Shown piece after piece: positions 14,466 through 28,160 of a DNA stretch of 64,000 nucleotides (its first letter is position 1; each line of letters begins with the position of its first letter). This stretch comes from Chloroflexota bacterium (GTDB lineage Bacteria > Chloroflexota > Limnocylindria > P2-11E), in the NCBI GenBank assembly GCA_016194865.1, contig JACQAT010000001.1, positions 81,657-145,656 of the forward strand, in the 5' to 3' direction. Both the position numbers and the translations under genes were made by a program. The notes under the pieces are model-generated. The model was not told the origin of the DNA, ran no database searches, and worked only from the letters and a program-made list of their open reading frames with translations.

Positions 14466-15305
14466 ATGTCGAAGGTAAGAGCTGCGCTCGTCCAGACCGC
14501 GTGGGCTGGCGACAAGGACAAGATGATCGAGCGGCACGTCCGCTACATCGAGGACGCCGCCAAGCAGGGCGCGCAGGCCATCTGCCTGCAGGAGCTCTTC
14601 TACGGCCCGTACTTCTGCCAGGTCCAGGACACGAAGTACTACTCGTACACGGAGCGGATCCCCGATGGCCCGACGACGAAGCTCATGCAGGAGCTCGCGA
14701 AGAAGCACTCGCTGGTGATCGTCGTCCCGATGTACGAGGAGGACGCGCCCGGCGTCTACTACAACACCGCCGCCGTGATCGATGCCGACGGCAAGTACCT
14801 CGGGAAGTACCGCAAGACCCACATCCCGCAGGTGAACGGCTTCTGGGAGAAGTTCTACTTCCGGCCGGGGAACATTGGGTACCCCGTCTTCGACACCGCG
14901 GTCGGCAAGGTCGGCGTCTACATCTGCTACGACCGTCACTTCCCGGAGGGGGCGCGGATGCTCGGGCTGCACGGCGCGGAGCTCGTCTTCATCCCATCCG
15001 CGACGTCGCGCGGCCTGTCGATGCACCTCTGGTTCATCGAGCAGACGGCGCACGCGATCGCGAACGGCTACTGGGTCGGCACGATCAACCGCGTCGGCAC
15101 GGAGAAGGAGTTCGGTCCGAACGAGTACTACGGCTCGTCGTACTTCGCCGATCCGCGGGGCAAGATCGTCGCGCAGGCGTCCGACAAGGACGAGCAGCTC
15201 GTCGTCGCCGACCTCGACATGGACCTCGTGCGCGAGGTCCGCAACACCTGGCAGTTCTACCGCGATCGCCGGCCGGACATGTACGACGATCTGGTGAAGC
15301 CCTAG
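14466..15305 (+). CDS. beta-ureidopropionase (beta-alanine synthase; nitrilase/CN-hydrolase superfamily)
   Basis: From memory (no alignment run), long matches to eukaryotic/bacterial beta-ureidopropionase blocks: NTAAVID, GKYRKTHIP, ICYDRHFPE, FIPSAT, INRVGTE, YGSSYFADP and LVVADLDMDLVREVRNTWQFYRDRRPDMY. Confidence 0.75.
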   Translation: MSKVRAALVQTAWAGDKDKMIERHVRYIEDAAKQGAQAICLQELFYGPYFCQVQDTKYYSYTERIPDGPTTKLMQELAKKHSLVIVVPMYEEDAPGVYYNTAAVIDADGKYLGKYRKTHIPQVNGFWEKFYFRPGNIGYPVFDTAVGKVGVYICYDRHFPEGARMLGLHGAELVFIPSATSRGLSMHLWFIEQTAHAIANGYWVGTINRVGTEKEFGPNEYYGSSYFADPRGKIVAQASDKDEQLVVADLDMDLVREVRNTWQFYRDRRPDMYDDLVKP

Positions 15306-16363
15306 CCGGCGCGCGCGACCTCGTTCGCCGCCGCGCGACGCGCCGTCGTGATCGGCAGCTGCCACAGACTCGACTGCCACGCGACCTTGAATCCCAGCTG
15401 CGTGTTGATGCCGAGCATTTGCTGGTTCACGTTCGCGTTGCCCGTGCGGATGAAGCGCGCGTCAGGCCGCTCGCGCAGGATCCGCTGGAGCATCGCCGCC
15501 TTCATCCACAGACCGACATGGTGTCCGCGGTGTCCGTCGATCACCGCCGTCCCGCGCTGCTGGATCACGTGCGGGATCTTCGGGTCGTAACTGACGTCGG
15601 TGAACCCCGCGCCCGCGCCCGTGGCCTCGTGGATCGCGAGGATCAGCCACCCCTCGACGCCCGCCTTGGCCATCCACTCCTCGCGATCGCGGACGTGCTC
15701 CTCCGTGAGCTTCCAGTCCGCCATCTGGAGGTTCCCGCGCGGCGCGTCGTTCATCCCGTTGGCGGCCTGAAGCAGTGGCGCGATCAGCTCCGGCGGAACC
15801 ACCTGGTCGACCTTCACGAGTCGGTAGCCGGCCGGCGACAACGCGGCCCACTCGTCGATCTTCGCGCGGTCCACGCCGGCGAGGTCCAGCTGGTTCATCT
15901 TCATCGGCAGGCCGGGCTCCGCGCCGATGGCCTTGAGGAACGCGGCGCCCGACGGGACGCGGTCGCTGACGGACGTCATGAACAGGACGTCGTCACCGAA
16001 CTCCTCGCACGCGCTCACGATGCCCGCGAGCAGCGCGCGGCCGATGCCCGCGCGACGGTGATCAGGATGCACGAAGACCTCCGCCCAGTAGAGGTGCGCG
16101 TTCTCCGGCTCGTTCAGGTTGTGATCGGCGAACGCCGCGCCCAGCAGGCGGCCCTGCGCGTCGCGTGCCCTGACGTGAGCGCGCCACTCGTGGGCCGCGA
16201 GGAGCCGCGCCCGGCGCATGAGGACCTCGGTCGAGATCTCGGGGTCCTCGGGCACGCGCTCCTTGGCCAGCACCTGCTGGAGGCGCGCGAGCTCGACGAG
16301 CTCCGCCTCCGGGATGCCGGCGGGCTCGAACCGATCGATCGTGTAGGCCCTCGTTGCGTTCAT
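15302..16363 (-). CDS. GNAT family N-acetyltransferase (tandem GNAT domains)
   Basis: 353 aa; acetyl-CoA binding-like motifs HRRAGIGRALL and the second half. Confidence 0.6.
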   Translation of the reverse strand: MNATRAYTIDRFEPAGIPEAELVELARLQQVLAKERVPEDPEISTEVLMRRARLLAAHEWRAHVRARDAQGRLLGAAFADHNLNEPENAHLYWAEVFVHPDHRRAGIGRALLAGIVSACEEFGDDVLFMTSVSDRVPSGAAFLKAIGAEPGLPMKMNQLDLAGVDRAKIDEWAALSPAGYRLVKVDQVVPPELIAPLLQAANGMNDAPRGNLQMADWKLTEEHVRDREEWMAKAGVEGWLILAIHEATGAGAGFTDVSYDPKIPHVIQQRGTAVIDGHRGHHVGLWMKAAMLQRILRERPDARFIRTGNANVNQQMLGINTQLGFKVAWQSSLWQLPITTARRAAANEVARAG

Positions 16364-16442
16364 GGTCCGCGGAGCCTAGCGAACGAGCTCGCCGCGCGTC
16401 CATCAAATAGGGCACGTTCGCGAGTGCCACTAGGCTCGTTGC

Positions 16443-17864
16443 ATGAGCGCGGACGCGATCGTGATCGGCGCGGGTCCGAACGGCCTCGGCGCCGCGATCG
16501 CGCTCGCGCGAGCCGGTCATTCGGTCGTCGTGCACGAGGCCGAGGACACAATTGGGGGCGGTTGCCGGTCCGCCGAGCTGACGCTCCCAGGCTTCGTCAA
16601 CGACATCTGCTCCGCGATCCATCCGCTGGCGGCCGCGTCGCCCTTCTTCCGCGAGCTGCCGCTCGAACGGTACGGCCTCGAATGGATCCAGCCGGCGGCG
16701 CCGCTCGCGCATCCGCTCGACGACGGGACCGCGGTCGTCCTGGAGAGGGACGTGGACGAGATGGCCCGTTCGCTCGGTCGCGACGGCGGCGCGTGGCGGC
16801 TCGTCTTCGGGGGTACCGCCCGCGATTGGGAGCGAATCGTCGGGCACATGACCGGACCGCTGCTGCGCGTCCCGCGGCATCCGTTGACCATGGCGCGTGC
16901 CGGCGCGTTCGGCGTGCTGTCGGCACGGGCCCTCGCGGAGCTGTTCTTCCGCACCCCACGAGCGCGCTCTCTCATCGCCGGTCTCGCGGCGCACTCCTTC
17001 CTCTCCCTCGATGCGCCACTCTCCGCGACGTTCGCGCTCGCGCTCGGTGGTTCGGCGCATGCCGTCGGCTGGCCGCTGCCGCGCGGCGGCTCGCAGCGCA
17101 TCGCGGATGCGCTGGTCGCGTATCTGCGCTCGCTCGGCGGAGAGGTGCGCGCCGGCGATCGGGTCGCGGCGCTGCGCGAGCTCGATCCAGCGCGGGCGTA
17201 CCTGTTCGACGTGACCCCGGCGCAGCTCGACACGATTGCGGGCGACCGTCTCCCGGATCCCTACCGGCGTTCGCTGCGGCGCTTCCGTCCCGGGCCGGGC
17301 GTGTTCAAGCTCGACTACGCCCTGAGCGCGCCCGTGCCGTGGCGTGCCGCGGAGTGCGCGCGCGCCGGGACGGTCCACCTCGGCGGCACGTTCGACGAGA
17401 TCGCGGCCGGCGAGGCCGCGGTCATGCGTGGCGAGCACCCGGAGCGCCCGTTCGTCCTCGTGGCGCAGCAGAGCCTCTTCGATCCGACCCGCGCACCCGC
17501 CGGCAAGCACACGCTGTGGGCCTACTGCCATGTCCCCAACGGCTCGCGCGTCGACATGATCGCGCGCATCGAGGCGCAGCTCGAGCGCTTCGCGCCGGGC
17601 TTCCGCGACGTCGTGCTCGCGCGGCACGCGATGGACAGCGCCGAGGTCGAGCGGCGGAACGCCGCGCACGCCGGCGGCGACATCTCGGGCGGAGCGCACA
17701 CCGGTCTGCAGCTCATCGCGCGGCCGACGCTCGCGCGCGTCCCGCACGCCACGCCGGCACGAGACATCTACCTGTGCTCCGCGTCCACGCCGCCGGGTGG
17801 GGGCGTGCATGGGATGTGCGGCTACCTCGCGGCGCAAGCAGCTCTTGCGCGGAGCTTCGCGTGA
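16443..17864 (+). CDS. NAD(P)/FAD-dependent oxidoreductase (phytoene desaturase/CrtI-like family)
   Basis: N-terminal dinucleotide-binding motif DAIVIGAGPNGLGAAIALARAG, 473 aa. Confidence 0.7.
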   Translation: MSADAIVIGAGPNGLGAAIALARAGHSVVVHEAEDTIGGGCRSAELTLPGFVNDICSAIHPLAAASPFFRELPLERYGLEWIQPAAPLAHPLDDGTAVVLERDVDEMARSLGRDGGAWRLVFGGTARDWERIVGHMTGPLLRVPRHPLTMARAGAFGVLSARALAELFFRTPRARSLIAGLAAHSFLSLDAPLSATFALALGGSAHAVGWPLPRGGSQRIADALVAYLRSLGGEVRAGDRVAALRELDPARAYLFDVTPAQLDTIAGDRLPDPYRRSLRRFRPGPGVFKLDYALSAPVPWRAAECARAGTVHLGGTFDEIAAGEAAVMRGEHPERPFVLVAQQSLFDPTRAPAGKHTLWAYCHVPNGSRVDMIARIEAQLERFAPGFRDVVLARHAMDSAEVERRNAAHAGGDISGGAHTGLQLIARPTLARVPHATPARDIYLCSASTPPGGGVHGMCGYLAAQAALARSFA

Positions 17865-18238
17865 TCGTCGAGCTTGACGAGGCGGTCGTCGCGCTCCTTC
17901 CGCGGCGTCATGGGTTCCGGCGTGCCGCTCTTTTGATGACTTTGCTGCTTGTCGCGATCGTCCCGTTGATCCGCGACGAGCCGCTTCCTGTCCGCAGGTT
18001 GCACATGCCCGACGATGCTCAAGACGTTGAGCTGACATGGCTCCCGGACCGGCTCGCGAACGAACCGCCACCCGCGTCTGTCCGGATCCCCGTGAGCATC
18101 CGAGGCACGACCGGCCTCGCGTCCGTCGATGAGACCGTCGCGATCGTCCTGTGGACGGAGCGTGGGATCGCGTATCGGCTGCTGTCCGACACGCGAAGCG
18201 TCGGCGATCTCGTGCTCGTGGCCGCGCGCCTTCGCTAG
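17861..18238 (+). CDS. hypothetical small membrane protein (low confidence)
   Basis: GTG at 17861 overlaps the upstream stop (GTGA) and there is one predicted TM helix. Its GC3 is noticeably lower than in neighbouring genes, so it may be non-coding leader DNA. Confidence 0.3.
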   Translation: MIVELDEAVVALLPRRHGFRRAALLMTLLLVAIVPLIRDEPLPVRRLHMPDDAQDVELTWLPDRLANEPPPASVRIPVSIRGTTGLASVDETVAIVLWTERGIAYRLLSDTRSVGDLVLVAARLR

Positions 18239-18262
18239 ATCCCCCGCGTATCCTCTCGCCGC

Positions 18263-19675
18263 ATGACCAGGACGCTCATCACCGGCGGGACCATCGTGAC
18301 CGCGTCGGACACCTACAAGGCCGACGTGCTCGTCGACGGCGAGAAGGTCGCGATGATCGGCAAGGGCCTCAAGCCCGACGGCGCCAAGAAGCTCGACGCG
18401 GGCGGGATGTACGTGATCCCGGGCGGCATCGACGTGCACACGCACATGGAGCTGCCGTTCGGCGGCACGACCGCGTCCGATGACTTCGAGACGGGCACGC
18501 GCGCCGCGGCCTTCGGTGGGACGACGTCGATCGTCGATTTCGCGGTGCAGGGCTTCGGCGAGCCGCTGCGCAAGGCACAGGACCTGTGGCTGAAGAAGGC
18601 GCAGGGCAAGGCCGTCATCGACTACGGCTTGCACATGATCGTTCGCGACGTGAGCGACAAGGTCCTTCGTGAGATGGACACGCTCGTCCGCGACGGCATC
18701 AGCTCCTTCAAGCTCTTCATGGCCTATCCCGGCGTGTTCATGCTCGATGACGGCGCCATCTTCAAGGCCCTCGTGCGGACCGGCGAGAACGGTGGCCTCA
18801 TCTGCATGCACGCCGAGAACGGCGGTGTCATCGACGTGCTGGTGAAGAAGGCGCTCGCCGAGAAGAAGACCGCGCCGAAATGGCACGCGCTCACGCGTCC
18901 ACCCGAGGTCGAGGGCGAGGCGACAGGCCGCGCGTTCAAGCTCGCGGAGATGGCGGGCGGTGTGCCGCTGTACATCGTCCACCTGTCAGCCGCACAGGCG
19001 CTCGAGCAGGTGCGCCTGTTCCGCGATCGGGGGCTTCCTGCCTACGCCGAGACGTGCCCCCAGTACCTCTTCCTCTCCTATGACAACTACGAGGAGCCAG
19101 GCTTCGATGGCGCCAAGTACGTCATGTCGCCGCCGCTGCGCCCGAAGTGGCACCAGGACGAGCTGTGGAAGGGACTCGCGCGGAACGATCTCCAGGTCGT
19201 CTCGACGGACCACTGCCCGTTCTGCATGAAGGAAGGGTTCGCGGGCATGCCGAAACAGAAGGAGCTGGGGAAGGGCGACTTCTCGAAGATCCCCAATGGG
19301 GCGCCCGGCGTCGAGACGCGGATGGCCCTGATGTATGACGGTGGCGTGGTCGGCGGGCGCATCACCCTGAATCGTTGGATCGAGCTGACCTCGACGACGC
19401 CGGCGAAGATCATGGGGATGTTCCCGAGGAAGGGGACCGTCGCGGTCGGAAGCGATGCCGATCTCGTTTTGTGGGACCCGAAGGCCACCCAGGTGCTCTC
19501 GGCCAAGACCCACCACATGCGCGTCGACTACAACCCGTACGAGGGCCGCAAGGTCAGGGGCAGGGCGAGCGTGGTCCTCAGCCGCGGCGAGGTCATCGTC
19601 CAGGACGGGAAATTCCTCGGGAAGACCGGCCGAGGCCGGTTCGTCAAGCGCGGCGCGCCGGTCCTCCAGACCTGA
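18263..19675 (+). CDS. dihydropyrimidinase / D-hydantoinase (cyclic amidohydrolase)
   Basis: 470 aa; TLITGGTIV, metal-binding GGIDVHTHMELPFGGT and carboxylated-Lys region typical of hydantoinase/dihydropyrimidinase. Confidence 0.8.
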   Translation: MTRTLITGGTIVTASDTYKADVLVDGEKVAMIGKGLKPDGAKKLDAGGMYVIPGGIDVHTHMELPFGGTTASDDFETGTRAAAFGGTTSIVDFAVQGFGEPLRKAQDLWLKKAQGKAVIDYGLHMIVRDVSDKVLREMDTLVRDGISSFKLFMAYPGVFMLDDGAIFKALVRTGENGGLICMHAENGGVIDVLVKKALAEKKTAPKWHALTRPPEVEGEATGRAFKLAEMAGGVPLYIVHLSAAQALEQVRLFRDRGLPAYAETCPQYLFLSYDNYEEPGFDGAKYVMSPPLRPKWHQDELWKGLARNDLQVVSTDHCPFCMKEGFAGMPKQKELGKGDFSKIPNGAPGVETRMALMYDGGVVGGRITLNRWIELTSTTPAKIMGMFPRKGTVAVGSDADLVLWDPKATQVLSAKTHHMRVDYNPYEGRKVRGRASVVLSRGEVIVQDGKFLGKTGRGRFVKRGAPVLQT

Positions 19676-19690
19676 TCTGAGGCGATTTCC

Positions 19691-19844: not shown

Positions 19845-20270
19845 ATGAAGAGGTGGCTGGCGTCCGCGGTCGCTGCGGTGATCCTGACCCTCGGTGTGGG
19901 TCTGCCTTCGGCAGCCGCGCCAGAATGGTGCGAGGTCGATCCGATCCTGCACTTCTCCGACGGGGGGACCGTTCGGCTCACGGCACAGTTCCGATCCGTC
20001 TACCTCACACCCTCGACCGTCGCCACCTTCGACGTGACCGTCGCGAAGGGCACGCATGTCAGCGTGACGATCCCCAAGGGGCTGGCGGTCCCTGAGAAGG
20101 TGAATATCATCAACAGCAGCTCGCAGGACGAGGGCACCGCGTCCGTCAACGTGACCGTCTCCGGCGGGAAGTTCCCGATCACCGTGATCCGTTCGGGTCC
20201 GGGCGATCAGTACACGGTCACGCACGGGCAGAGCACAGGTACGAGGTTGAGCTTCTCGACCGAGGAGTAG
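19845..20270 (+). CDS. small secreted protein (signal peptide), hypothetical
   Basis: MKRWLASAVAAVILTLGVGLPSAAAP signal peptide and GGAGG-like RBS (gggaggtattagATG). It sits in a lower-GC intergenic context. Confidence 0.5.
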   Translation: MKRWLASAVAAVILTLGVGLPSAAAPEWCEVDPILHFSDGGTVRLTAQFRSVYLTPSTVATFDVTVAKGTHVSVTIPKGLAVPEKVNIINSSSQDEGTASVNVTVSGGKFPITVIRSGPGDQYTVTHGQSTGTRLSFSTEE

Positions 20271-20273
20271 TCC

Positions 20274-21548: not shown

Positions 21549-22487
21549 CTAGCCGATCAGCTCCAGCAGCTTCGGCTTCACCTCGCGCATGAGACGTTCG
21601 ATCGTCTCGTGGTCGTAGGGCGCGGAGATACCGAAGATGAAGCCGCGGGCGCCCGCGCGCCAGCGCTCGAGGAGGTGCTTCGCGACGCCATCGGGCGTCC
21701 CGCTGATGGTGACGTTCGGCGTCGCGGACTGGCGGTGGTGCGTGCGGAGCTCGTTGAGGCGGGCGTCGATCGCGCTCTGCGTGTCGCGGACGAGCGCGCT
21801 GCCACCCGTCGTCGGCAGGATGGCGGCGTAGTCGCGCTTCACGGTCTCGCAGTGGCGCTTGAGCACTTCGAGCTTGTGGGCGATCACGTCGGCCGTCCCG
21901 AAGCCGTGCCAGATGTCGGCGAAGCTCGCTGTGATCTTGAGCGTCACCTGCTCGCCGCCGCCGCCGATCATGATCGGCAGGCGCTTCTGGATCGGCTTCG
22001 GCTCGCAGGTGGCGTCGGTGATCGTGTAGTGCGTGCCGGCGAAGGTCGTTCTCGGCTGGTCGAGCAGCGAGCGGATGATCGGCACGGCCTCGCGCAGCTT
22101 CTGGAGGCGGATCGGCGCGGTGTCGAACGGGATGCCGTACATCTTGTGCTCGGCCTCGTGCCACGCGGCCCCGATGCCGAGGATGGCCCGGCCCTCGGTG
22201 ATGTGATCGAAGGTGGCCGCCATGTTCGCGAGCACCGCCGGATGCCGGTAGGTGTTCCCGGTCACGAGCATGCCGAGCTTCACGCGAGTCGTCGACGCGC
22301 CAAGGGCCGGAAGGATCTGCCAGCCCTCGAAGTTCGGACCCGTCGCGTCGCCGATCAGCGGAACGAAGTGGTCCCACGTGGTGAGCCAGTCGTAGCCGAG
22401 CTCATCGATGAGGCGAGCTGTTCCGCGGATCTCCGGCCAGGTCGTGTACTGCGGGTGCAGCTGGATGCCGAATCCGACGTTCATCAC
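21549..22487 (-). CDS. LLM-class F420-dependent oxidoreductase
   Basis: 312 aa; strongly similar in block structure to the 23946..24896 paralogue (TWDHFVPL, ILGIGAAWHEAEHKMYGIPF, IMIGGGGEQ). Confidence 0.75.
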   Translation of the reverse strand: MMNVGFGIQLHPQYTTWPEIRGTARLIDELGYDWLTTWDHFVPLIGDATGPNFEGWQILPALGASTTRVKLGMLVTGNTYRHPAVLANMAATFDHITEGRAILGIGAAWHEAEHKMYGIPFDTAPIRLQKLREAVPIIRSLLDQPRTTFAGTHYTITDATCEPKPIQKRLPIMIGGGGEQVTLKITASFADIWHGFGTADVIAHKLEVLKRHCETVKRDYAAILPTTGGSALVRDTQSAIDARLNELRTHHRQSATPNVTISGTPDGVAKHLLERWRAGARGFIFGISAPYDHETIERLMREVKPKLLELIG

Positions 22488-22605
22488 GATGAAGCGTAGA
22501 TGGTCACAGCACCGCCCGGCGGTGCCGTGACCATCCTGCTACGCCTGCGGCTACGTAGTAGGTCGCACGGGGCCGACCTCGCTCGCGGGGTATCCTTCAT
22601 CGCTC

Positions 22606-23949
22606 ATGGCCCTCAAGACCGCGGCCGATACCGCCCGCATCGCGCGCGACACGCGCGCCCACGTCCTCACGTCGTGGTCCGCGCAGGGCGCCGTCAGTCC
22701 GCTCGTCATCACCGGCGGCGAGGGCTGCTGGCTGCGTTCCGGAGAGCGGCGCGTGCTCGACTTCTCATCGACGCTCATCAACACGAATCTCGGCCACCAG
22801 CACCCGCGCGTCGTCCGCGCGATCCAGGAGCAGGCCGCGACGCTGACCTACGCGGCTCCCGCATTCACCGACGAGCCGCGCGCGACCCTCGCGCGACTGC
22901 TCGCGGAGGTCACGCCGGGCGATCTGGTCAAGACCGTGTTCACGACCGGCGGCAGCGAAGCCAACGAGCACGCCATCAAGATCGCCCGCATGGCCACCGG
23001 GCGGCACAAGATCCTCACGCAGTGGCGTTCGTTCCACGGTCAGACGCAGGGCGCGATGACGCTCGGCGGCGACAACCGGCGCTGGGCGCACGAGCCAGGC
23101 ATCTCGGGTGTCGTGCACTTCCTCAATCCCGACCCGTATCGCTCGGTGTTCGGCGACGACGTGCAGCAGGCGCTCGCGCACGTCGAGGAGGTGCTCTGGT
23201 ACGAGGGCCCGAAGCAGGTGGCGGCCATCATGCTCGAGCCCATCGTCGGCACCTCGGGCCTCCTCGTGCCACCTGACGGCTACCTGCAGGGCCTGCGGCG
23301 GCTGTGCGACACGCACGGCATCCTGCTGATCCTCGACGAGGTGATGACCGGATTCGGCCGGACCGGGCGCTGGTTCGGCGCGGACCACTGGGGCGTGGCG
23401 CCCGACATCATGACCTTCGCCAAGGGCGTGACCTCCGGGTATGTGCCCCTGGGCGGCGCGATCGTCAACGAGAAGCTCGCGAAGCACTTCGAGCAGAACG
23501 TGCTGTGGGTCGGCTCGACATACAGTGGCCACGCGCTCGCCTGCGCGGCGGGCGCGGTGGCCATCGAGGCGTACCGCGACGAGCATGTGATCGAGAACTC
23601 CGCGGCGATGGGCGAGCTGCTGCTGCGCGAGCTGAAGACCGTCGCCGTGCGGCACCCATCGGTCGGCGATGTCCGTGGTCGCGGCCTGTTCGTCGGCATC
23701 GAGCTCGTGAAGGACCGCGGCACGAAGGAGATGCTCGAGCGCTGGAACGGTCCGTCGAGCGCGCTGGCCAACGCGCTGAAGAACGCGCTCCTGGAGCGCG
23801 ACGTCTACATGTTCTGCCGCTGGAACGTCATGTTCGTCGCGCCGCCGCTGATCATCCGCGAGGACGAGCTGCGCATCGGCGTCAAGGCGATCGACGAGGT
23901 GCTCGAGATCGCGGATCGCTACGCGGAGACCGGGAAACTCGACACCTGA
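22606..23949 (+). CDS. class-III (omega) aminotransferase, possibly beta-alanine/omega-amino acid:pyruvate type
   Basis: 447 aa; the PLP-lysine block ILDEVMTGFGRTGRWFGADHWGVAPDIMTFAKG is the class-III signature. Confidence 0.8.
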   Translation: MALKTAADTARIARDTRAHVLTSWSAQGAVSPLVITGGEGCWLRSGERRVLDFSSTLINTNLGHQHPRVVRAIQEQAATLTYAAPAFTDEPRATLARLLAEVTPGDLVKTVFTTGGSEANEHAIKIARMATGRHKILTQWRSFHGQTQGAMTLGGDNRRWAHEPGISGVVHFLNPDPYRSVFGDDVQQALAHVEEVLWYEGPKQVAAIMLEPIVGTSGLLVPPDGYLQGLRRLCDTHGILLILDEVMTGFGRTGRWFGADHWGVAPDIMTFAKGVTSGYVPLGGAIVNEKLAKHFEQNVLWVGSTYSGHALACAAGAVAIEAYRDEHVIENSAAMGELLLRELKTVAVRHPSVGDVRGRGLFVGIELVKDRGTKEMLERWNGPSSALANALKNALLERDVYMFCRWNVMFVAPPLIIREDELRIGVKAIDEVLEIADRYAETGKLDT

Positions 23950-24896
23950 CGCGGCAGGCACCGCATCTCGGCATCAACCTGCCGGCGCAGCACACCACCT
24001 GGGACAAGCTCCGCGACACGGTCGCGCTCATCGACCGCAGCGGTCTGGATTCCGTGTGGACGTGGGATCACTTCGTCCCGCTCAGCGGTGACACCGACGG
24101 CCCGATGTTCGAGGCCTGGGAGTTGCTCGCGGCCTGGGGCGCGATCACCACGCGCGTGAAGATCGGCACGCTGGTGACCGGTGCGACCTACCGGAACCCT
24201 GCGCTGCTCGCGAAGATGGTCGCGACGCTCGACCACATCACGAAGGGACGCGCGATCCTCGGCCTTGGGGCGGCCTGGCACGAGGACGAGCACAAGATGT
24301 ACGGCATCCCGTTCCTCTCCACGGGCGGGCGCCTGGCGCGCCTCGCGGAGGCGTCAGAGGCGATCCGCATGCTCCTCGATCAGCCGTTCGCCACGCTCAA
24401 CGGGAAGTACGTGAAGCTGACGAACGCGCTCTGCGAGCCGAAGCCGGTCCAGGCGCGGCTCCCGCTGCTCATCGGCGGCGGCGGCGAGCGCAAGACGCTG
24501 CGCATCGTCGCGCGCTTCGCGGACTACTGGCACGGGCACGGCACCCCGGAGGTCATCGCGCACAAGCTCGAGGTGCTCAAGGCGCACTGCGCCGCCGTCG
24601 GGCGGGATATCAGCGAGATCACGCCGCTCACGACGACCCGTCCGAACATCGTGCTGCGCGACACGGTGGCCGAGGTGCGCGCCCACTGGAAGCAGGTGGC
24701 AGAGGCCGCGCGGATGACCGAGGTGCCCGAGCCGAACCCGATCCACACGGTCGATACGCTCGTCGAATTGCTCATCCGGTATTGGAAGGCCGGCGCGCGC
24801 GGGTTCCTGTTCTACTCGCAGGAGCCGTTCGACCACGAGACCATCACGCGCATCGCGGAGCAGGTACGGCCACGCCTGACGGAGGCCCTCCCGTGA
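23946..24896 (+). CDS. LLM-class F420-dependent oxidoreductase (start codon uncertain)
   Basis: The conserved N-terminus (HLGINLPAQHTTW...) begins immediately at the aminotransferase stop. No in-frame ATG or GTG is available there; the nearest candidate is CTG 23946, which overlaps the upstream TGA. Confidence 0.6.
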   Translation: MTRQAPHLGINLPAQHTTWDKLRDTVALIDRSGLDSVWTWDHFVPLSGDTDGPMFEAWELLAAWGAITTRVKIGTLVTGATYRNPALLAKMVATLDHITKGRAILGLGAAWHEDEHKMYGIPFLSTGGRLARLAEASEAIRMLLDQPFATLNGKYVKLTNALCEPKPVQARLPLLIGGGGERKTLRIVARFADYWHGHGTPEVIAHKLEVLKAHCAAVGRDISEITPLTTTRPNIVLRDTVAEVRAHWKQVAEAARMTEVPEPNPIHTVDTLVELLIRYWKAGARGFLFYSQEPFDHETITRIAEQVRPRLTEALP

Positions 24897-24948: not shown

Positions 24949-25962
24949 TCAGGCGGTGAGGGTCGGCTGGAGATCGCGGACGTGCGGGATGATGTCGCGC
25001 CCGTAGCGCTCGAGGATCTGCTCCTCGTCGCCGCTCATCAGGTAGATGTTGAACTGCGTCACGCCGGCCTTCGCGAGCGTGCGCAGCTTCTCGATGTGCT
25101 CGTCCACCTCGCCGATGACGCAGAAGCGGTCGACCGACTCGTCGTCCACGAACGCGGCATTCGCTGAGCCCGACTCCGCGTGGTGCTTGTAGTCGTAGCC
25201 GGGCCGCCCACGGACGTACGCCGTCAGGTCGGCCGGCAGCCCCTGCTCGCCGTAGCGCTTCACGAGGTCCACGACGTGGTTGCTCACGAGGGCGGGGAAC
25301 CAGCGCACGCGCTCGCGCACGTCCGCGCGCTTCCCCACATGCGCCGGGGCGGCCGCCATGACGCGCAGCGCACCAGGATCGCGGCCCGCGGCGCGCGCGC
25401 CCTCGCGGAGCAGTCCGACGCACCACGCGACGAGGCCAGGGTCGGCGAGCTGGATGATCGCGCCGTCGGCGACGCGGCCGGTGAGGGCGAGGGCCCTCGG
25501 TCCGTAGCCCGCGATCCACATCGGCAGCGCGTGGGGCTCGACCCAGTCGAGATGGAGCTTGGTGCCTTCGTACTCGATCGGCCGGCCCTCGCACAGCTCC
25601 CTGATGACAAGCGCGGCCTGCTCGAGGTCGACGAGCGTCATCGGGCGCTTGCCGAGCACGCGGCGCGCCGAGTCACCGCGCCCGATCCCCAGGTCCATGC
25701 GGCCCTTCGAGAGGATCTGCAGCACGGCGAGGGCGCTCGCGGTGACGCTGGGCTCGCGCGTGGCCGGGTTGGTGACGCAGGTGCCGAGGCGCATGCGCTC
25801 GGTGTTCTGCGCCATGAGCGTGAGCAGCGTGTACGGCTCCTTCCACAACACGTGGCTGTCGAAAAGCCAGCCGTACGTGAAGCCACTCCGCTCCGCGAGC
25901 TTCGTCAGGCTGACGATGCGCTCGAGCGAGTGGTCGGGCTTGAGGGTGAAGCCGAATTCCAT
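24949..25962 (-). CDS. LLM-class F420-dependent oxidoreductase
   Basis: ATG 25962 (MEFGFTLKPDHS...); the track ORF upstream of this is an Arg/Ser-rich artefact. Luciferase-like blocks are present (GFTYGWLFDSHVLW, RMDLGIGRGD). Confidence 0.7.
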   Translation of the reverse strand: MEFGFTLKPDHSLERIVSLTKLAERSGFTYGWLFDSHVLWKEPYTLLTLMAQNTERMRLGTCVTNPATREPSVTASALAVLQILSKGRMDLGIGRGDSARRVLGKRPMTLVDLEQAALVIRELCEGRPIEYEGTKLHLDWVEPHALPMWIAGYGPRALALTGRVADGAIIQLADPGLVAWCVGLLREGARAAGRDPGALRVMAAAPAHVGKRADVRERVRWFPALVSNHVVDLVKRYGEQGLPADLTAYVRGRPGYDYKHHAESGSANAAFVDDESVDRFCVIGEVDEHIEKLRTLAKAGVTQFNIYLMSGDEEQILERYGRDIIPHVRDLQPTLTA

Positions 25963-25987
25963 GAGGACGGGAGTGTACGGAGCGGCG

Positions 25988-26521
25988 CTAGCCGCTCGCG
26001 TCCCAGCGCGTTCGCCGCTCGACGGCCACGCGCACGATCGGGCGGCCGGCGAGGGAGCCGTCCTGGTACTGCGGATATTTGACCGCCAGCAGCTCGGCCG
26101 CGCGATCGCGCTCGTCCCCCGACTCGAGGATCGTCGCGATCCCGTCGAGGCGCACCCACGCGAGGCGCGTCCAGTCCTCGTCCCAGCGGTCGACGAGGAC
26201 GCTCGCGCGCCCGTTCGTCTCGATGTTGCGGACGCGCTGGAGCGCGTGCCAGTCATCGTCACGCTTCGGCTTCCGGTCCAAGGGCGTATAGAGCACGTCG
26301 CTCCCGCTCATCACGTACACGATGGGGACGACGTGCGGGCGCGCGTATTGGTCGGACGTCGCGAGGTGCGCGACGCGAGCGCCGTCTAGGAGCTCGTCCG
26401 CAGCCGAGGAATGACCTCCGTCGAGAACTGGCGCAGCGAGCGCTCCTGGTCGCGTCCCGGGAAGTGGAAGACCAGATGCCCGAAGCCGAGGTCCAGGTAC
26501 GGCCGCAGCTGCGCGACGCAC
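25988..26521 (-). CDS. PPOX-class F420-dependent (pyridoxamine 5'-phosphate oxidase family) enzyme; start uncertain
   Basis: The core ELLDGARVAHLATSDQYARPHVVPIVYV...LAWVRLDG matches the F420-binding PNPOx-like split barrel. The track M1 overlaps the fgd 3' end by 135 nt, so the true start is probably further in. Confidence 0.55.
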   Translation of the reverse strand: MRRAAAAVPGPRLRASGLPLPGTRPGALAAPVLDGGHSSAADELLDGARVAHLATSDQYARPHVVPIVYVMSGSDVLYTPLDRKPKRDDDWHALQRVRNIETNGRASVLVDRWDEDWTRLAWVRLDGIATILESGDERDRAAELLAVKYPQYQDGSLAGRPIVRVAVERRTRWDASG

Positions 26522-27393
26522 TCCGCGGGATCGTTCGTGACGATGAAGCGCGTGTGCGCCTTGTCGGCGCCGGCGACCGAGCGGCGCTCCATCTCACGCG
26601 GGTCCTCGACGCCGGCCTTGTCCTCCGCGGGCAGCGCCAGCGCCGCCCACTCCCGCGTGTCGGCGAGCGCGCGGTCGCGATCCGCGTCGAACGAGACCTT
26701 GATCTCGATCATCAGCTCGAGCGCGGCCGGATCCTTCTTCGCCTTGGCCGCGCCCTTGCGGAAATTCGGCAGCAGCGTCTCGGTGTAGAGCGCCATCCCC
26801 TTGCCGCTCGTCACGATGAGCCCGTCGCCGTCCTGCCCCGCGTACTCGGCCGCCTTCGGGCCCGACGCGGCGAAGAGGATCGGCAGCGCGCCGTCCGGCT
26901 TGTCGAAGATCTTCGCGGCGCGCGTCTTGTAGAAGGTGCCCTCGAACGTGACGTAGTTCTCTGTCCAGAGACGGCGGATGAGCGTGACCGCCTCGCGCAG
27001 ACGCGCCAGCCGCTCGCCCGGCGCCGGCCACTCGCCGGCGGTGACGGGCGTCTCGTTCATCGACTCGCCGCTGCCCACGCCGAGGAACACGCGCCCCGGG
27101 AAGAGCGACCCGAGCGTCGCGAAGGCCTGCGCGACGACCGCGGGGTGATAGCGGAACGTCGGCGTCACCACGCTGGTCCCGATGCGGACGCGCTTCGTGG
27201 CCTGGCCGAGCGCGCCGAGCCATGCGAACGAGAACGGCGCGTGCCCGTCGGTGTCCTTCCAGGGGTGGAAGTGGTCGCTCACCACGACGCTGTCGAACCC
27301 GAGCTCCTCGGCGAGGAGCCCGTAGCGCAGCAGCTCGCGTGGCGCGAACTGCTCCGCGGATGCCTTGTAGCCGAGCGTCAGCACTCCGTTCAT
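26386..27393 (-). CDS. fgd: F420-dependent glucose-6-phosphate dehydrogenase
   Basis: 335 aa; matches to mycobacterial Fgd1 (recalled from memory, not aligned) include LGYKASAEQFAPRELL, VSDHFHPW, GHAPFS, LGTSVVTPTFRYHPAVVAQAFATLG, VFLGVGSGE and HLVFHFPG. Confidence 0.8.
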   Translation of the reverse strand: MNGVLTLGYKASAEQFAPRELLRYGLLAEELGFDSVVVSDHFHPWKDTDGHAPFSFAWLGALGQATKRVRIGTSVVTPTFRYHPAVVAQAFATLGSLFPGRVFLGVGSGESMNETPVTAGEWPAPGERLARLREAVTLIRRLWTENYVTFEGTFYKTRAAKIFDKPDGALPILFAASGPKAAEYAGQDGDGLIVTSGKGMALYTETLLPNFRKGAAKAKKDPAALELMIEIKVSFDADRDRALADTREWAALALPAEDKAGVEDPREMERRSVAGADKAHTRFIVTNDPAECVAQLRPYLDLGFGHLVFHFPGRDQERSLRQFSTEVIPRLRTSS

Positions 27394-27408
27394 CCTACTG
27401 TCCTACGC

Positions 27409-28160
27409 ACATGAAGCTCGAGATCGTCGGCGTCGACGGCCTGCCCGAGATCCGTCCGGGCGACGATCTCGCGCGACTCATCTCGGAACGCGCCACTCTG
27501 CACACCGGGGACGTCCTCGCCGTCGCGCAGAAGATCGTCTCGAAAACCGAGAACCGCATCGTGCGCCTCGCCGACGTCACGCCCGGCCCGCGCGCGCTCG
27601 CGATGGCCGAGGAGGCCGGTGGCAAGGACGCGCGGATCCTCGAGGTCGTGCTCGGCGAGACGCGCAAGATCGTTCGCTGGACCCGCGGCGTCCTGATCTC
27701 CGAAACGCATCACGGGTTCGTGTGCGCGAACGCCGGCGTCGATCGCTCGAACGCGGGAGAGCAGGACGCGGTGGTGCTGCTGCCGGTCGACCCCGATGGC
27801 TCCGCCATGCGGATTCGGAAGGCGCTCAAGGAGATCGCGAAGGCCGACGTCGCGGTCATCGTGACCGACACGTTCGGGCGCGCCTGGCGCGAAGGGCACG
27901 CGAACATGGCGATCGGCATCGCGGGCCTGTCCGCGCTGAAGCGCTACGCGGGGCAGTACGACCCGCAGGGCTACGAGCTGCGCGTGACCGAGATCGCCAT
28001 CGCCGATGAGATCGCGGCCGCCACCGAGCTCGTCATGGGGAAGCTCGACCGCTGCCCTGCGGCGATCGTGCGCGGTCTGCACCTGGAGTTCACGGACAGC
28101 GGCGGCGAGGAGACGGCGCGCGAGTACGTCCGCAGCGCGGAGCGCGACCTGTTCCGGTGA
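27409..28160 (+). CDS. cofE: coenzyme F420-0:L-glutamate ligase
   Basis: 250 aa; the CofE/FbiB N-domain pattern MKLEIVGVDGLPEIRPGDDL...VAQKIVSK...HGFVCANAGVD...VTDTFGRAWREG. Confidence 0.75.

What the first reader, a model, noticed from the sequence alone, without database searches (positions are those of the whole stretch)
14466..28160. Pyrimidine/hydantoin catabolic enzymes embedded in an F420 island with no dihydropyrimidine dehydrogenase: candidate F420H2-dependent reductive pyrimidine pathway
Within about 14 kb the window encodes dihydropyrimidinase (18263..19675), beta-ureidopropionase (14466..15305) and a class-III aminotransferase (22606..23949). These correspond to steps 2 to 4 of reductive pyrimidine catabolism (dihydrouracil to ureidopropionate to beta-alanine to malonate semialdehyde). 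No PydA/PreAT-type dihydropyrimidine dehydrogenase is present. The same block instead carries four luciferase-like F420-dependent oxidoreductases (21549..22487, 23946..24896, 24949..25962; and 3032..3913 further upstream). One of these begins inside the stop codon of the aminotransferase. It also carries a PPOX-class F420 enzyme, F420-dependent G6PD (fgd, the F420H2 generator) and cofE (F420 polyglutamylation). An F420H2-dependent enoate-type reduction of uracil/thymine or hydantoins by one of the LLM/PPOX enzymes would complete the pathway. To my knowledge this has not been described.
Basis: partly seen in the sequence, partly recalled or inferred. Interest (0 to 1): 0.75.

Follow-up and report, generated by a model that had tools for sequence, protein, structure and literature searches.

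The report
Candidate F420-dependent uracil reductase pathway
This Chloroflexota window encodes steps 2 to 4 of reductive pyrimidine breakdown but no known enzyme for step 1, and comparison across about 170 loci in three phyla picks out one uncharacterised F420-dependent enzyme (family TIGR03842) as the likely missing uracil/thymine reductase, which could also explain why some Proteobacteria make cofactor F420.

Summary
The window comes from a Candidatus Limnocylindria (Chloroflexota) genome. It encodes a dihydropyrimidinase, a beta-ureidopropionase-like CN hydrolase, a class-III aminotransferase, four F420-type LLM oxidoreductases, a PPOX-class F420 enzyme, fgd and cofE. No PreA/PreT-type dihydropyrimidine dehydrogenase lies in the 64 kb.

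In relatives at 55-75% identity, every locus with full flanks (23/23) has dihydropyrimidinase within 10 kb, often directly adjacent. At least seven gene orders occur. Streptomyces carries an operon CN hydrolase-aminotransferase-dihydropyrimidinase-TIGR03842. In marine Alpha- and Gammaproteobacteria the gene ends an operon cofGHDCE-fno-TIGR03842. That operon sits inside or next to dihydropyrimidinase, an M20 carbamoylase, a nucleobase transporter and an aminotransferase, in two genera together with a RutR-like regulator.

Only 1 of about 170 loci has a PreA-like gene. The protein is Mer-like in fold but lacks Mer's Glu6. I found no paper describing this.

It remains a prediction. No enzyme assay exists and no whole genome was checked for a canonical dehydrogenase. 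The TIGR03560 LLMs, the TIGR03619 LLM and the PPOX enzyme are not conserved partners.

The parts
24949..25962 (-). TIGR03842-family LLM-class F420-dependent oxidoreductase (337 aa, ATG at 25962). Candidate F420H2:uracil/thymine reductase, the functional replacement for PydA/PreAT.
   Evidence: NCBIfam TIGR03842 426 bits against cut-off 295. Closest solved structure by sequence is Mer, E 5e-40. AF2 model pLDDT 87, and the top 29 Foldseek hits are all F420-dependent LLMs. Conserved next to dihydropyrimidinase and a carbamoyl-amidase in three phyla.
18263..19675 (+). Dihydropyrimidinase / D-hydantoinase (step 2: opens the dihydrouracil or dihydrothymine ring).
   Evidence: TIGR02033 617 bits against cut-off 393. 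Solved structures 1yny, 1k1d and 3sfw score 560-572 bits.
14466..15305 (+). CN-hydrolase carbamoyl-amidase, probably beta-ureidopropionase (step 3).
   Evidence: PF00795 231 bits. Closest solved structures are N-carbamoylputrescine amidase 5h8i, beta-alanine synthase 2vhh and beta-ureidopropionase 6ftq. Triad E43/K117/C154 is kept, and the motif ICYDRH resembles beta-ureidopropionase ICYGRH. Orthologues at 58-91% identity flank the TIGR03842 LLM in other loci.
22606..23949 (+). Class-III (omega-amino acid) aminotransferase, probably converting beta-alanine or beta-aminoisobutyrate to the semialdehyde (step 4).
   Evidence: NCBIfam PRK06062 562 bits against cut-off 472. Present within 10 kb of the TIGR03842 LLM in 8/8 full-flank loci of the window's clade and 13/16 of the next clade.
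26386..27393 (-). [quoted passage not shown] First gene of the minus-strand run fgd-PPOX-TIGR03842.
   Evidence: TIGR03554 420.8 bits against cut-off 420. Same order in related loci.
25988..26521 (-). PPOX-class F420-dependent oxidoreductase, family TIGR03668 (Rv0121-like), between fgd and the TIGR03842 LLM. Role unknown. The start is uncertain: the domain begins near 26404 and the only upstream canonical start is GTG 26521, inside fgd.
   Evidence: PF01243. TIGR03668 145 bits against cut-off 119. Start analysis. Within 2 kb of the LLM in 23 of 27 loci of the window's clade, and in only 4 of 47 loci with >=2 kb flanks in the other identity groups.
27411..28160 (+). cofE, F420-0:L-glutamate ligase, divergent from fgd.
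   Evidence: TIGR01916 281.6 bits against cut-off 180.65. ATG at 27411.
23946..24896 (+). TIGR03560 LLM (b), directly downstream of the aminotransferase. Speculative role: F420H2-dependent reduction of malonate or methylmalonate semialdehyde.
   Evidence: TIGR03560 237 bits against cut-off 231. Only a CTG start at 23946, overlapping the aminotransferase stop codon. The aminotransferase-LLM pairing is conserved in the window's clade only.
21549..22487 (-). TIGR03560 LLM (a), divergent from the aminotransferase. Role unknown, same speculation as for (b).
   Evidence: TIGR03560 241.7 bits against cut-off 231.4. Flanks the aminotransferase in many Limnocylindria loci.
22499..22535 (.). Inverted repeat with 18-nt arms in the intergenic region between LLM (a) and the aminotransferase. 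Possible operator.
   Evidence: the repeat finder: arms 22499-22516 and 22518-22535, 94% complementary. Function not tested.
28462..29076 (+). ABATE/CGNR zinc-finger putative regulator, a recurrent neighbour of the TIGR03842 LLM in the window's clade.
   Evidence: PF07336 and PF11706. Homologues at 40-49% identity lie next to the LLM in many loci.
3032..3913 (+). No evidence that it belongs to the pathway.
   Evidence: TIGR03619 254.5 bits. No homologue in loci L001-L080. Only one 30%-identity hit, in L147.

Best explanation
The block encodes a reductive pyrimidine (uracil/thymine) degradation pathway whose first step is carried out by a cofactor-F420-dependent enzyme instead of an NAD(P)H/Fe-S/flavin dihydropyrimidine dehydrogenase.

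Proposed sequence of steps:
1. Fgd oxidises glucose-6-phosphate and reduces F420 to F420H2. In Proteobacteria, Fno does this with NADPH.
2. The TIGR03842 LLM (24949-25962) passes the hydride from C5 of F420H2 to C6 of uracil or thymine. C5 is then protonated, giving 5,6-dihydrouracil or dihydrothymine.
3. Dihydropyrimidinase (18263-19675) opens the ring.
4. The CN hydrolase (14466-15305) releases beta-alanine or beta-aminoisobutyrate, NH3 and CO2.
5. The class-III aminotransferase (22606-23949) makes malonate or methylmalonate semialdehyde.

What is shown: the family assignments, the Mer-like F420-LLM fold, and the cross-phylum genomic linkage. What is inferred: the substrate, the direction of the reaction and the chemistry of the TIGR03842 enzyme. 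A role for the two TIGR03560 LLMs as semialdehyde reductases is speculation.
For: 1. Synteny in Chloroflexota and metagenomes.
- I collected 160 loci: 80 from genomes and 80 from metagenomes.
- Among loci with at least 9 kb on both sides, 16/16 at 64-75% identity and 7/7 at 55-64% identity carry dihydropyrimidinase within 10 kb. The CN hydrolase is there in 16/16 and 6/7.
- Regardless of flank length, dihydropyrimidinase or the CN hydrolase lies within 300 nt of the LLM in 38/70 and 21/25 loci of those two groups.
- Several gene orders occur: CN hydrolase-LLM-dihydropyrimidinase with roughly 30-nt gaps (for example L060, L076, L080); dihydropyrimidinase-CN hydrolase-LLM; dihydropyrimidinase-NCS1-CN hydrolase-LLM; divergent dihydropyrimidinase and LLM; and NCS1-LLM-dihydropyrimidinase.

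2. Streptomyces. Streptomyces sp. G45 and S. lavendulae have a one-strand operon CN hydrolase-Aminotran_3-dihydropyrimidinase-TIGR03842. Strain BHT-5-2 is similar.

3. Proteobacteria. TIGR03842 is the last gene of cofG-H-D-C-E-fno-TIGR03842.
- In Leisingera this operon is divergent from pntAB-aminotransferase-M20 carbamoylase-hydA-NCS1.
- In Marinobacterium it lies next to an Amidohydro_1-family gene cut by the locus end (not confirmed as dihydropyrimidinase), NCS1 and an M20 hydrolase.
- In Cohaesibacter it follows a likewise cut Amidohydro_1 gene and an ABC transporter with an NMT1-type binding protein.
- In an abundant marine alphaproteobacterium it is fused into one array: cofD-cofE-fno-LLM-EamA-M20-dihydropyrimidinase (TIGR02033, 592 bits)-ABC transporter-aminotransferase.
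- Step 3 is filled by a non-homologous enzyme (M20 instead of CN hydrolase), yet the linkage to the LLM persists.

4. Direction of the reaction. Two unrelated F420-reducing enzymes sit immediately upstream of TIGR03842: Fgd in Chloroflexota and Fno in Proteobacteria. This implies that the LLM consumes F420H2.

5. Regulation. RutR-like regulators (42% and 46% identical to E. coli RutR) flank the operon in Leisingera and Marinobacterium. In Marinobacterium, four TTTACCnnnnGGTAAA boxes all lie in the two promoter regions, two of them 48-98 nt upstream of cofG. Shuffled sequence gives 0.3 on average.

6. No canonical first enzyme. PreA and PreT give no hit in the window. Across 1.2 Mb of loci plus the metagenome loci they give a single PreA-like hit.

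7. Fold. The top 29 solved-structure matches are all F420-dependent LLMs, with Mer at TM 0.82.

8. Chemical precedent. NpsU/SSGG-03002, a putative F420/FMN enzyme, reduces uracil C5=C6 in mureidomycins (PMC10714638).
Against: - There is no biochemical or genetic test of any TIGR03842 protein.
- Whole genomes could not be searched, so a canonical pydA or preAT elsewhere is not excluded.
- In the window's own clade (at least 75% identity) the LLM sits with fgd, PPOX, cofE and the aminotransferase. Only 1 of 8 full-flank loci has dihydropyrimidinase within 10 kb. In the window itself, dihydropyrimidinase and the CN hydrolase are 5.3 and 9.6 kb away, separated by unrelated genes.
- In S. venezuelae the orthologue follows cydABCD with no pyrimidine genes nearby.
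- Paracoccus alcaliphilus shows no dihydropyrimidinase within 10 kb.
- One locus (L077) carries a PreA-like gene in the same cluster.
- The loci are phylogenetically related, so the counts are not independent.
- LLM enzymes are not known ene-reductases of pyrimidines. The family-specific segment, residues about 221-270, is the least confident part of the model.
Confidence: 0.65

Rival explanations
1. The TIGR03842 LLM belongs to the pathway but acts at another step or on another ring. Examples are an F420H2-dependent malonate/methylmalonate semialdehyde reductase (analogous to PydE, RutE or YdfG), or a reductase for a different N-heterocycle such as a substituted pyrimidine or a hydantoin precursor.
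For: F420-dependent LLMs include alcohol/carbonyl oxidoreductases (Adf, Fgd, fHMAD), which are among the structural matches. A class-III aminotransferase that would make the semialdehyde is a frequent neighbour. The dihydropyrimidinase family also acts on 5-substituted hydantoins, and NCS1 carriers include hydantoin and allantoin permeases.
Against: Seven of 24 full-flank loci with dihydropyrimidinase and CN hydrolase have no class-III aminotransferase within 10 kb, and the Marinobacterium locus has none either. The LLM is typically wedged between, or directly beside, dihydropyrimidinase and the amidase rather than beside the aminotransferase. The only obligatory redox step of the pathway would otherwise have no enzyme in the clusters. 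RutR-type regulators sense uracil and thymine in E. coli (established knowledge). The CN hydrolase scores about twice as high against beta-ureidopropionase and N-carbamoylputrescine amidase (186-213 bits) as against D-carbamoylases (about 100 bits).
Confidence: 0.2
2. The linkage has no functional meaning for step 1. A canonical NAD(P)H dihydropyrimidine dehydrogenase encoded elsewhere does the reduction, and TIGR03842 has an unrelated, perhaps housekeeping, F420 role. This would explain why it rides with F420 biosynthesis genes.
For: Association with cofE and fgd in the window and with cofGHDCE-fno in Proteobacteria. The S. venezuelae copy is away from pyrimidine genes. L077 has a PreA-like gene. 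Whole genomes were not searched.
Against: Chance co-location within 10 kb of a roughly single-copy gene is below 1% per genome (my estimate, assuming a genome of about 3.5 Mb). It is seen in 23/23 full-flank loci of two clades, in at least seven arrangements, in three phyla, and it survives replacement of the amidase type. In the marine alphaproteobacterium the F420 genes, the LLM and the catabolic genes form one co-directional array.
Confidence: 0.08
3. Another F420 enzyme of the island is the uracil reductase: one of the TIGR03560 LLMs, the TIGR03619 LLM or the PPOX-class protein.
For: All are predicted F420 enzymes. The only genetic precedent for uracil-ring reduction, NpsU/SSGG-03002, has weak PPOX-class similarity rather than an LLM fold. 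LLM (b) is translationally coupled to the aminotransferase.
Against: Homologues of the TIGR03560 LLMs, the TIGR03619 LLM and the PPOX enzyme did not turn up in the Streptomyces or proteobacterial clusters, and they are rare in the 55-75% identity Chloroflexota and metagenome loci. TIGR03619 has no syntenic homologue.
Confidence: 0.05
4. The cluster is the F420 variant of the reductive uric-acid (yanthine) pathway predicted for Chloroflexota, with the 'dihydropyrimidinase' acting as HyuA.
For: PMC12507026 reports an LLM-family putative F420 reductase replacing YgfK/UacX next to SsnA in Chloroflexota. E. coli HyuA is 44% identical to the window's dihydropyrimidinase.
Against: YgeW, YgeX, YgeY, YqeA, YgfK, SsnA, YgfM, XdhD and XdhA have no homologue in the window or in 84 related loci at E 1e-5. 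The amidase and the aminotransferase fit beta-alanine chemistry, not diaminopropionate chemistry.
Confidence: 0.02

Closest known systems
Canonical reductive pyrimidine catabolism (PydA/DPD or E. coli PreT-PreA, then PydB dihydropyrimidinase, PydC beta-ureidopropionase, and the PydD/PydE extension)
   Same: Steps 2 to 4 use the same enzyme families: TIGR02033 dihydropyrimidinase, a CN-hydrolase or M20 carbamoyl-amidase, and a class-III aminotransferase. The clusters also carry NCS1 or ABC nucleobase transporters. In two Proteobacteria a RutR-like regulator is present.
   Different: No FMN/FAD/Fe-S dihydropyrimidine dehydrogenase is present. Its place in the clusters is taken by a cofactor-F420 LLM together with an F420-reducing enzyme (Fgd or Fno). 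In Proteobacteria the whole F420 biosynthesis operon is part of the cluster.
Mer, F420-dependent methylenetetrahydromethanopterin reductase (PDB 1f07, 1z69, 8qpl)
   Same: Closest relative by sequence (E 5e-40, about 31-32% identity) and by fold (TM 0.82). It is a TIM-barrel LLM, and the N-terminal two-thirds, including the VTNP and GIGxGD motifs, is shared.
   Different: The score is below the Mer equivalog cut-off (155.9 against 348.7). Mer's Glu6, mutated in PDB 8qq8, is Thr6 here. The family-specific motifs NHV(V/A)D and GRxGYDYxxH lie in a segment that does not align with Mer. The host organisms are not methanogens or methylotrophs, and the genomic context is different.
RutA, the FMN-dependent LLM pyrimidine monooxygenase of the Rut pathway
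   Same: Same superfamily, acts on uracil and thymine, and is controlled by RutR. RutR-like regulators flank TIGR03842 in two Proteobacteria.
   Different: Only 23% identity (E 4e-5). RutA cleaves the ring with O2 and FMNH2 and needs no dihydropyrimidinase. No rutB-G genes were seen in the annotated or Pfam-labelled contexts, although they were not searched for specifically.
NpsU / SSGG-03002 of napsamycin and mureidomycin biosynthesis
   Same: It is the only reported case, by genetics and NMR, of a putative F420/FMN-dependent enzyme reducing the C5=C6 bond of a uracil ring (PMC10714638).
   Different: It is a 443-aa protein with weak PPOX-class similarity, not an LLM. It acts on a uridyl-peptide antibiotic, not in catabolism, and its in-vitro activity was not reconstituted.
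Predicted F420 LLM 'yanthine reductase' in Chloroflexota uricolytic clusters (PMC12507026)
   Same: The same logic applies: in Chloroflexota an LLM-family putative F420 enzyme replaces a PydA-like or YgfK flavoenzyme that dearomatises a uracil-type ring.
   Different: That is a different pathway (SsnA, YgeW/UacY, YgeY, YgeX), and none of its genes is present here. It is also untested.

Membership tests
TIGR03842 (CPS_4043) family of LLM-class F420-dependent oxidoreductases | Score at or above the NCBIfam curated cut-off over the full-length model | tested here: met
   426 bits against cut-off 295.45, model positions 1-328 of 329. 76 columns are invariant across 31 members from three phyla.
F420-dependent luciferase-like hydride transferases | TIM-barrel LLM fold closest to structurally proven F420 enzymes | tested here: met
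   AF2 model pLDDT 87.1, pTM 0.88. Foldseek ranks 1-29 are all F420-dependent LLMs (Mer, FGD2, FGD, Adf), and FMN enzymes rank lower.
F420-dependent luciferase-like hydride transferases | Actually binds and uses F420 | not testable with these tools
   Only indirect evidence: the gene lies in an operon with cofGHDCE and fno in Proteobacteria, and with fgd and cofE here.
Mer (methylene-H4MPT reductase, TIGR03555) | Equivalog score, and the Glu6 residue that is mutated in PDB 8qq8 | tested here: not met
   155.9 bits against cut-off 348.7. Glu6 of Mer aligns with Thr6. That Glu6 is catalytic is my reading of the E6Q entry title together with recalled literature.
RutA pyrimidine monooxygenase (TIGR03612) | Equivalog-level similarity | tested here: not met
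   Not among the listed families for this protein. 23% identity, E 4e-5 against E. coli RutA.
PydA/PreA-PreT dihydropyrimidine dehydrogenase | DHO_dh-type FMN domain with Fe-S and FAD/NAD(P) modules encoded in the block | tested here: not met
   tblastn of E. coli PreA and PreT finds nothing in the window. The single hit in 1.22 Mb of loci is L077. The rest of the genome could not be searched.
Dihydropyrimidinase / D-hydantoinase (TIGR02033) | Equivalog score | tested here: met
   617 bits against cut-off 393.25. Solved D-hydantoinases score 560-572 bits.
Beta-ureidopropionase (CN-hydrolase type) | Glu-Lys-Cys catalytic triad and closest similarity to carbamoyl-amine amidases | tested here: met
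   E43, K117 and C154 align with the triad of 5h8i (5h8k is the Cys-to-Ser mutant). The motif ICYDRH compares with ICYGRH of 2vhh and 6ftq.
Beta-ureidopropionase (CN-hydrolase type) | Specificity for N-carbamoyl-beta-alanine rather than N-carbamoylputrescine or other substrates | tested here: inconclusive
   The best NCBIfam hit is aguB at 277 bits, below cut-off 410. Solved N-carbamoylputrescine amidase (213 bits) and beta-alanine synthase (206 bits) score about the same. Context with dihydropyrimidinase favours beta-ureidopropionase.
Reductive uric-acid pathway (XdhD, YgfK, SsnA, HyuA, YgeW/YqeA, YgeY, YgeX) | Presence of SsnA plus the downstream carbamoyltransferase, peptidase and ammonia-lyase | tested here: not met
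   Only HyuA matches, and it matches the dihydropyrimidinase (44% identity). The other nine proteins give no hit at 1e-5.
Fgd (TIGR03554) and CofE (TIGR01916) | Equivalog scores | tested here: met
   Fgd 420.8 against 420, which is marginal. CofE 281.6 against 180.65.

The most novel reading that the evidence does not exclude
TIGR03842 proteins are a widespread, Fe-S-free, F420H2-dependent dihydropyrimidine dehydrogenase. In marine Alpha- and Gammaproteobacteria the entire F420 biosynthesis operon plus fno exists mainly to serve this one enzyme, as part of a RutR-controlled pyrimidine-catabolic module. This would give the first physiological role for F420 in Proteobacteria and a defined role in Chloroflexota and Streptomyces.
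Probability: 0.55. Interest if true: 0.85.

Novelty: new variant of a known kind. Interest (0 to 1): 0.78.

Why it matters
- A 2021 review of F420 states that no F420-dependent enzyme has been studied in Proteobacteria or Chloroflexi, and that why these groups make the cofactor is an open question (PMC8498797). This prediction offers a concrete answer that can be tested at the bench.
- It would add a third, mechanistically simple type of dihydropyrimidine dehydrogenase, working by direct hydride transfer without Fe-S clusters, alongside PydA and PreAT.
- It would assign a function to thousands of proteins now labelled only 'TIGR03842 family'. One marine cluster alone has 651 member sequences on 240 contigs.
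- It would revise models of pyrimidine and nitrogen recycling in soil Chloroflexota, Streptomyces and marine roseobacters.
- Practical angles: an F420-dependent ene-reductase for dihydropyrimidine and hydantoin chemistry, and possible bacterial reduction of 5-fluorouracil by a route other than PreTA.

Tried and rejected
- Reductive uric-acid pathway: rejected. Nine of ten E. coli pathway proteins have no homologue here.
- NpsU as a homologue of the LLM: rejected. I first recalled it as Mer-like, but the paper's supplement shows only weak PPOX-class similarity.
- Mer and RutA identity: rejected.
- Riboswitch or other known RNA in the window: no Rfam hits at gathering threshold.
- A shared operator among the window's intergenic regions: only chance-level 12-mers. 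The promoter and terminator scan was at the level of shuffled sequence.
- E. coli-type RutR boxes in Leisingera, Cohaesibacter and the marine alphaproteobacterium: none convincing. Only Marinobacterium is positive.
- Looking up the window's own contig through P0001: not on record. The rest of the 234-kb source contig therefore could not be read.
- The CrtI-like FAD oxidoreductase (16443-17864) and the GNAT as pathway members: no FAD-oxidoreductase homologue in L001-L080 and none listed in the metagenome loci, and the GNAT recurs in only two loci.
- Ten literature searches pairing F420 with dihydropyrimidine dehydrogenase, dihydrouracil, dihydropyrimidinase, hydantoinase, ureidopropionase, pyrimidine degradation or TIGR03842 found no description. 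Subscription-only papers are not covered.

Full report
**Source and gene content**

The window is about 70% G+C. Its TIGR03842 protein is identical to one from an NCBI metagenome-assembled Chloroflexi genome, on a contig of 234,508 bp. The nearest relatives are Candidatus Limnocylindria.

Because shadow ORFs abound at this G+C, I called genes by third-position G+C and annotated them with NCBIfam and Pfam. The order in the region of the finding is:

| Coordinates | Strand | Assignment |
|---|---|---|
| 7596-14381 | - | Opp/Dpp-type ABC transporter genes and an M20 dipeptidase |
| 14466-15305 | + | CN hydrolase |
| 15302-16363 | - | GNAT |
| 16443-17864 | + | CrtI/amine-oxidase-like FAD protein |
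| 18263-19675 | + | dihydropyrimidinase |
| 19845-20270 | + | 141-aa ORF, no family |
| 20274-21542 | + | membrane HD-GYP-like protein |
| 21549-22487 | - | TIGR03560 LLM (a) |
| 22606-23949 | + | class-III aminotransferase |
| 23946-24896 | + | TIGR03560 LLM (b) |
| 24949-25962 | - | TIGR03842 LLM |
| 25988-about 26404 | - | TIGR03668 PPOX |
| 26386-27393 | - | fgd |
| 27411-28160 | + | cofE |
| 28462-29076 | + | ABATE/CGNR regulator |

A TIGR03619 LLM lies at 3032-3913. The rest of the window (34-64 kb) is unrelated.

**Check of the observation**

- The dihydropyrimidinase passes its equivalog cut-off by a wide margin (617 against 393). It scores 560-572 bits against solved Bacillus D-hydantoinases.
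- The CN hydrolase keeps the Glu-Lys-Cys triad (E43, K117, C154). It scores about 186-213 bits against N-carbamoylputrescine amidase, Drosophila beta-alanine synthase and human beta-ureidopropionase, but only about 100 bits against D-carbamoylases. No specific NCBIfam model passes, so calling it beta-ureidopropionase rests on family plus context.
- E. coli PreA and PreT, taken from MG1655, find nothing in the 64-kb window.

Three corrections apply. The LLM said to begin inside the aminotransferase stop codon has only a CTG there (CTGA); the next canonical start would remove the first beta-strand. The PPOX ORF must overlap the end of fgd. cofE starts at 27411.

**Which F420 enzyme is tied to the pathway**

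I fetched 80 genomic loci around homologues of the TIGR03842 LLM. All came from Chloroflexota-type metagenome-assembled genomes. I then fetched 80 metagenomic loci using a three-phylum alignment as the query. I mapped the window's proteins, plus reference proteins, onto all loci by tblastn and counted neighbours.

Among loci with at least 9 kb on both sides:

| LLM identity to the window | Full-flank loci | Dihydropyrimidinase within 10 kb | CN hydrolase within 10 kb |
|---|---|---|---|
| 64-75% | 16 | 16 | 16 |
| 55-64% | 7 | 7 | 6 |
| at least 75% (window's own clade) | 8 | 1 | 1 |

- In the 55-64% group, 4 of 7 loci also carry an NCS1 nucleobase carrier.
- Many loci are tight operons. In L060, for example, the CN hydrolase is at 9136-9972, the LLM at 10001-10990 and dihydropyrimidinase at 11022-12386.
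- The order varies: CN hydrolase-LLM-dihydropyrimidinase; dihydropyrimidinase-CN hydrolase-LLM; dihydropyrimidinase-NCS1-CN hydrolase-LLM; divergent dihydropyrimidinase and LLM with NCS1 and CN hydrolase downstream; and NCS1-LLM-dihydropyrimidinase.
- In the window's own clade the LLM has instead settled between fgd-PPOX and the aminotransferase. All 8 full-flank loci carry cofE, PPOX and the aminotransferase. Several shorter loci (L004, L015, L020, L034, L041, L043, L049) do carry dihydropyrimidinase and the CN hydrolase, as the window does.
- The TIGR03560 LLMs and the PPOX enzyme accompany the LLM essentially only in this clade. TIGR03619 never does.

**Other phyla**

A tblastn search against plasmid records and two further protein searches gave named organisms.

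- Streptomyces: Streptomyces sp. G45 and S. lavendulae carry a one-strand operon CN hydrolase-Aminotran_3-dihydropyrimidinase-TIGR03842. Strain BHT-5-2 has dihydropyrimidinase 33 nt upstream of the LLM. S. venezuelae is an exception: there the gene follows cydABCD.
- Proteobacteria: the gene is the last cistron of cofG-cofH-cofD-cofC-cofE-npdG(fno)-TIGR03842.
  - In Leisingera this operon is divergent from pntA-pntB-class-III aminotransferase-M20 'hydantoinase/carbamoylase family' amidase-hydA-NCS1.
  - In Marinobacterium arenosum it neighbours an Amidohydro_1-family gene cut by the locus end, NCS1 and an M20 hydrolase. The cut gene was not confirmed as dihydropyrimidinase.
  - In Cohaesibacter it follows a likewise cut Amidohydro_1 gene and an ABC transporter with an NMT1/THI5-like binding protein.
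  - In an abundant marine alphaproteobacterium (651 member sequences, 240 contigs) everything is co-directional: cofD-cofE-fno-LLM-EamA-M20-dihydropyrimidinase (TIGR02033, 592 bits)-ABC transporter-Aminotran_3.

The linkage therefore survives replacement of the step-3 enzyme by a non-homologous one, and replacement of the aminotransferase subfamily.

**Further pointers to pyrimidines and to a reductive direction**

- Two unrelated F420-reducing enzymes lie immediately upstream of the LLM: Fgd in Chloroflexota and Fno in Proteobacteria. This argues that the LLM consumes F420H2.
- TetR regulators with the YcdC/RutR C-terminal domain flank the operon in Leisingera and Marinobacterium. They are 42% and 46% identical to E. 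coli RutR. From established knowledge, RutR is the uracil/thymine-sensing regulator.
- In Marinobacterium, four TTTACCnnnnGGTAAA palindromes resemble the RutR box as I recall it. All four fall in the two promoter regions, and two lie 48-98 nt upstream of cofG. Shuffled sequence gives about 0.3 in 21 kb. No such boxes were found in the other genera.
- NCS1 carriers, and ABC systems with NMT1-type binding proteins, recur in the clusters.

**The protein itself**

- It is Mer-like: E 5e-40 by sequence, and TM 0.82 for a model with pLDDT 87. The 29 best structural matches are all F420-dependent LLMs.
- It is not Mer. It fails the Mer model (156 against 349 bits). Mer's Glu6, the residue mutated in PDB 8qq8, is Thr6 here.
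- It is not RutA (23% identity).
- Seventy-six columns are invariant across three phyla. They include the motifs NHV(V/A)D (228-232) and GRxGYDYxxH (252-261). These sit in the segment that does not align with Mer and that the model predicts with the least confidence. I infer, without having tested it, that this segment forms the substrate site.

**Rival explanations**

- The reductive uric-acid pathway uses a HyuA of the same family, and an F420 LLM has been predicted for it in Chloroflexota (PMC12507026). It is excluded because none of its other nine proteins has a homologue here.
- A role for the LLM as a semialdehyde reductase is possible but less likely. Seven of 24 full-flank clusters lack the aminotransferase, and the pathway's obligatory reduction would be left without an enzyme.
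- A canonical dehydrogenase elsewhere in these genomes cannot be excluded with the tools available. Only one locus, L077, carries a PreA-like gene (303 bits against cut-off 335, lacking the Fe-S tail) in the cluster.

**Literature**

Ten full-text searches found no description of an F420-dependent dihydropyrimidine dehydrogenase or of a function for TIGR03842.

- The 2021 F420 review does not mention uracil or hydantoin and lists the role of F420 in Proteobacteria and Chloroflexi as unknown.
- The nearest precedents are NpsU/SSGG-03002, which reduces the uracil ring of an antibiotic, has a different fold and rests on genetics only, and the predicted Chloroflexota yanthine reductase.
- Subscription-only literature was not searchable.

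**Verdict**

This is a new variant of a known pathway. It is predicted from strong cross-phylum gene linkage and awaits an enzyme assay. Confidence in the specific step is about 0.65. Confidence that the enzyme is functionally tied to the dihydropyrimidinase pathway is above 0.9.

Noticed in passing
L081/L084 (Leisingera NZ_CP081034.1), L169, L170, L172: In marine Proteobacteria the complete F420 biosynthesis operon plus fno ends with the TIGR03842 gene. It is embedded in or adjacent to pyrimidine-catabolic genes. In Leisingera the membrane transhydrogenase pntAB heads the catabolic operon, suggesting an electron route NADH to NADPH to F420H2.
   Followed up: yes
L170 3219-3274 and 4375-4425; L170 3444-4076; L081 11228-11860: RutR-like TetR regulators (42-46% identical to E. 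coli RutR) sit beside the F420/LLM operon. In Marinobacterium, four TTTACCnnnnGGTAAA palindromes occupy the two promoter regions. No equivalent boxes were found in Leisingera or Cohaesibacter.
   Followed up: partly
L077 4106-5230 (-): This is the only locus of about 170 with a PreA-like gene: 374 aa, DHO_dh domain only, no Fe-S tail, 303 bits against cut-off 335. It lies between the class-III aminotransferase and a 604-aa protein with no family match, beyond which lies the NCS1 carrier. It is in the same cluster as CN hydrolase-TIGR03842-dihydropyrimidinase.
   Followed up: partly
L167/L168 (S. venezuelae): The TIGR03842 orthologue follows cydABCD and is not near pyrimidine genes, unlike in Streptomyces sp. 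G45 and S. lavendulae. The same downstream genes (GGT, inositol phosphatase, FAD amine oxidase, Macro) occur in both layouts. The FAD oxidase is 50% identical to window 16443-17864.
   Followed up: no
window 23946-24054: The TIGR03560 LLM downstream of the aminotransferase has no ATG, GTG or TTG start near its N-terminus. Only CTG 23946, overlapping the TGA of the aminotransferase, or CTG 23979 would keep the first beta-strand.
   Followed up: partly
window 22499-22535: Near-perfect inverted repeat with 18-nt arms (GATGGTCACAGCACCGCC / GGCGGTGCCGTGACCATC) in the divergent promoter region between a TIGR03560 LLM and the aminotransferase. It may be an operator, for example for the CGNR/ABATE protein.
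   Followed up: no
window 7596-14381; L169 12032-19025: An Opp/Dpp-type ABC transporter (two SBP_bac_5 binding proteins and two permeases, with no ATPase seen) and an M20 dipeptidase lie divergent from the CN hydrolase. In Cohaesibacter an SBP_bac_5/Opp system and an M20/M28 peptidase also sit next to the LLM. They could import beta-alanyl or carbamoyl compounds.
   Followed up: no
L060 3457-4620; L095, L100, L102, L118, L133, L169, L172: ABC transporters with an NMT1/THI5-like binding protein recur beside the clusters in both Chloroflexota and Proteobacteria. They are candidate pyrimidine importers, an alternative to NCS1.
   Followed up: partly
window 30535-31698 (-): An IS-type transposase (rve integrase core with HTH domains) lies just beyond the F420 block. 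It overlaps a long opposite-strand ORF with a DUF2330 match, which is probably a shadow ORF.
   Followed up: no
window 17865-18262: A 398-nt stretch upstream of the dihydropyrimidinase has no called gene and no Rfam match.
   Followed up: partly
window 27393-27411: fgd and cofE are divergent with only 17 nt between their start codons, so their promoters must lie inside each other's coding regions.
   Followed up: no
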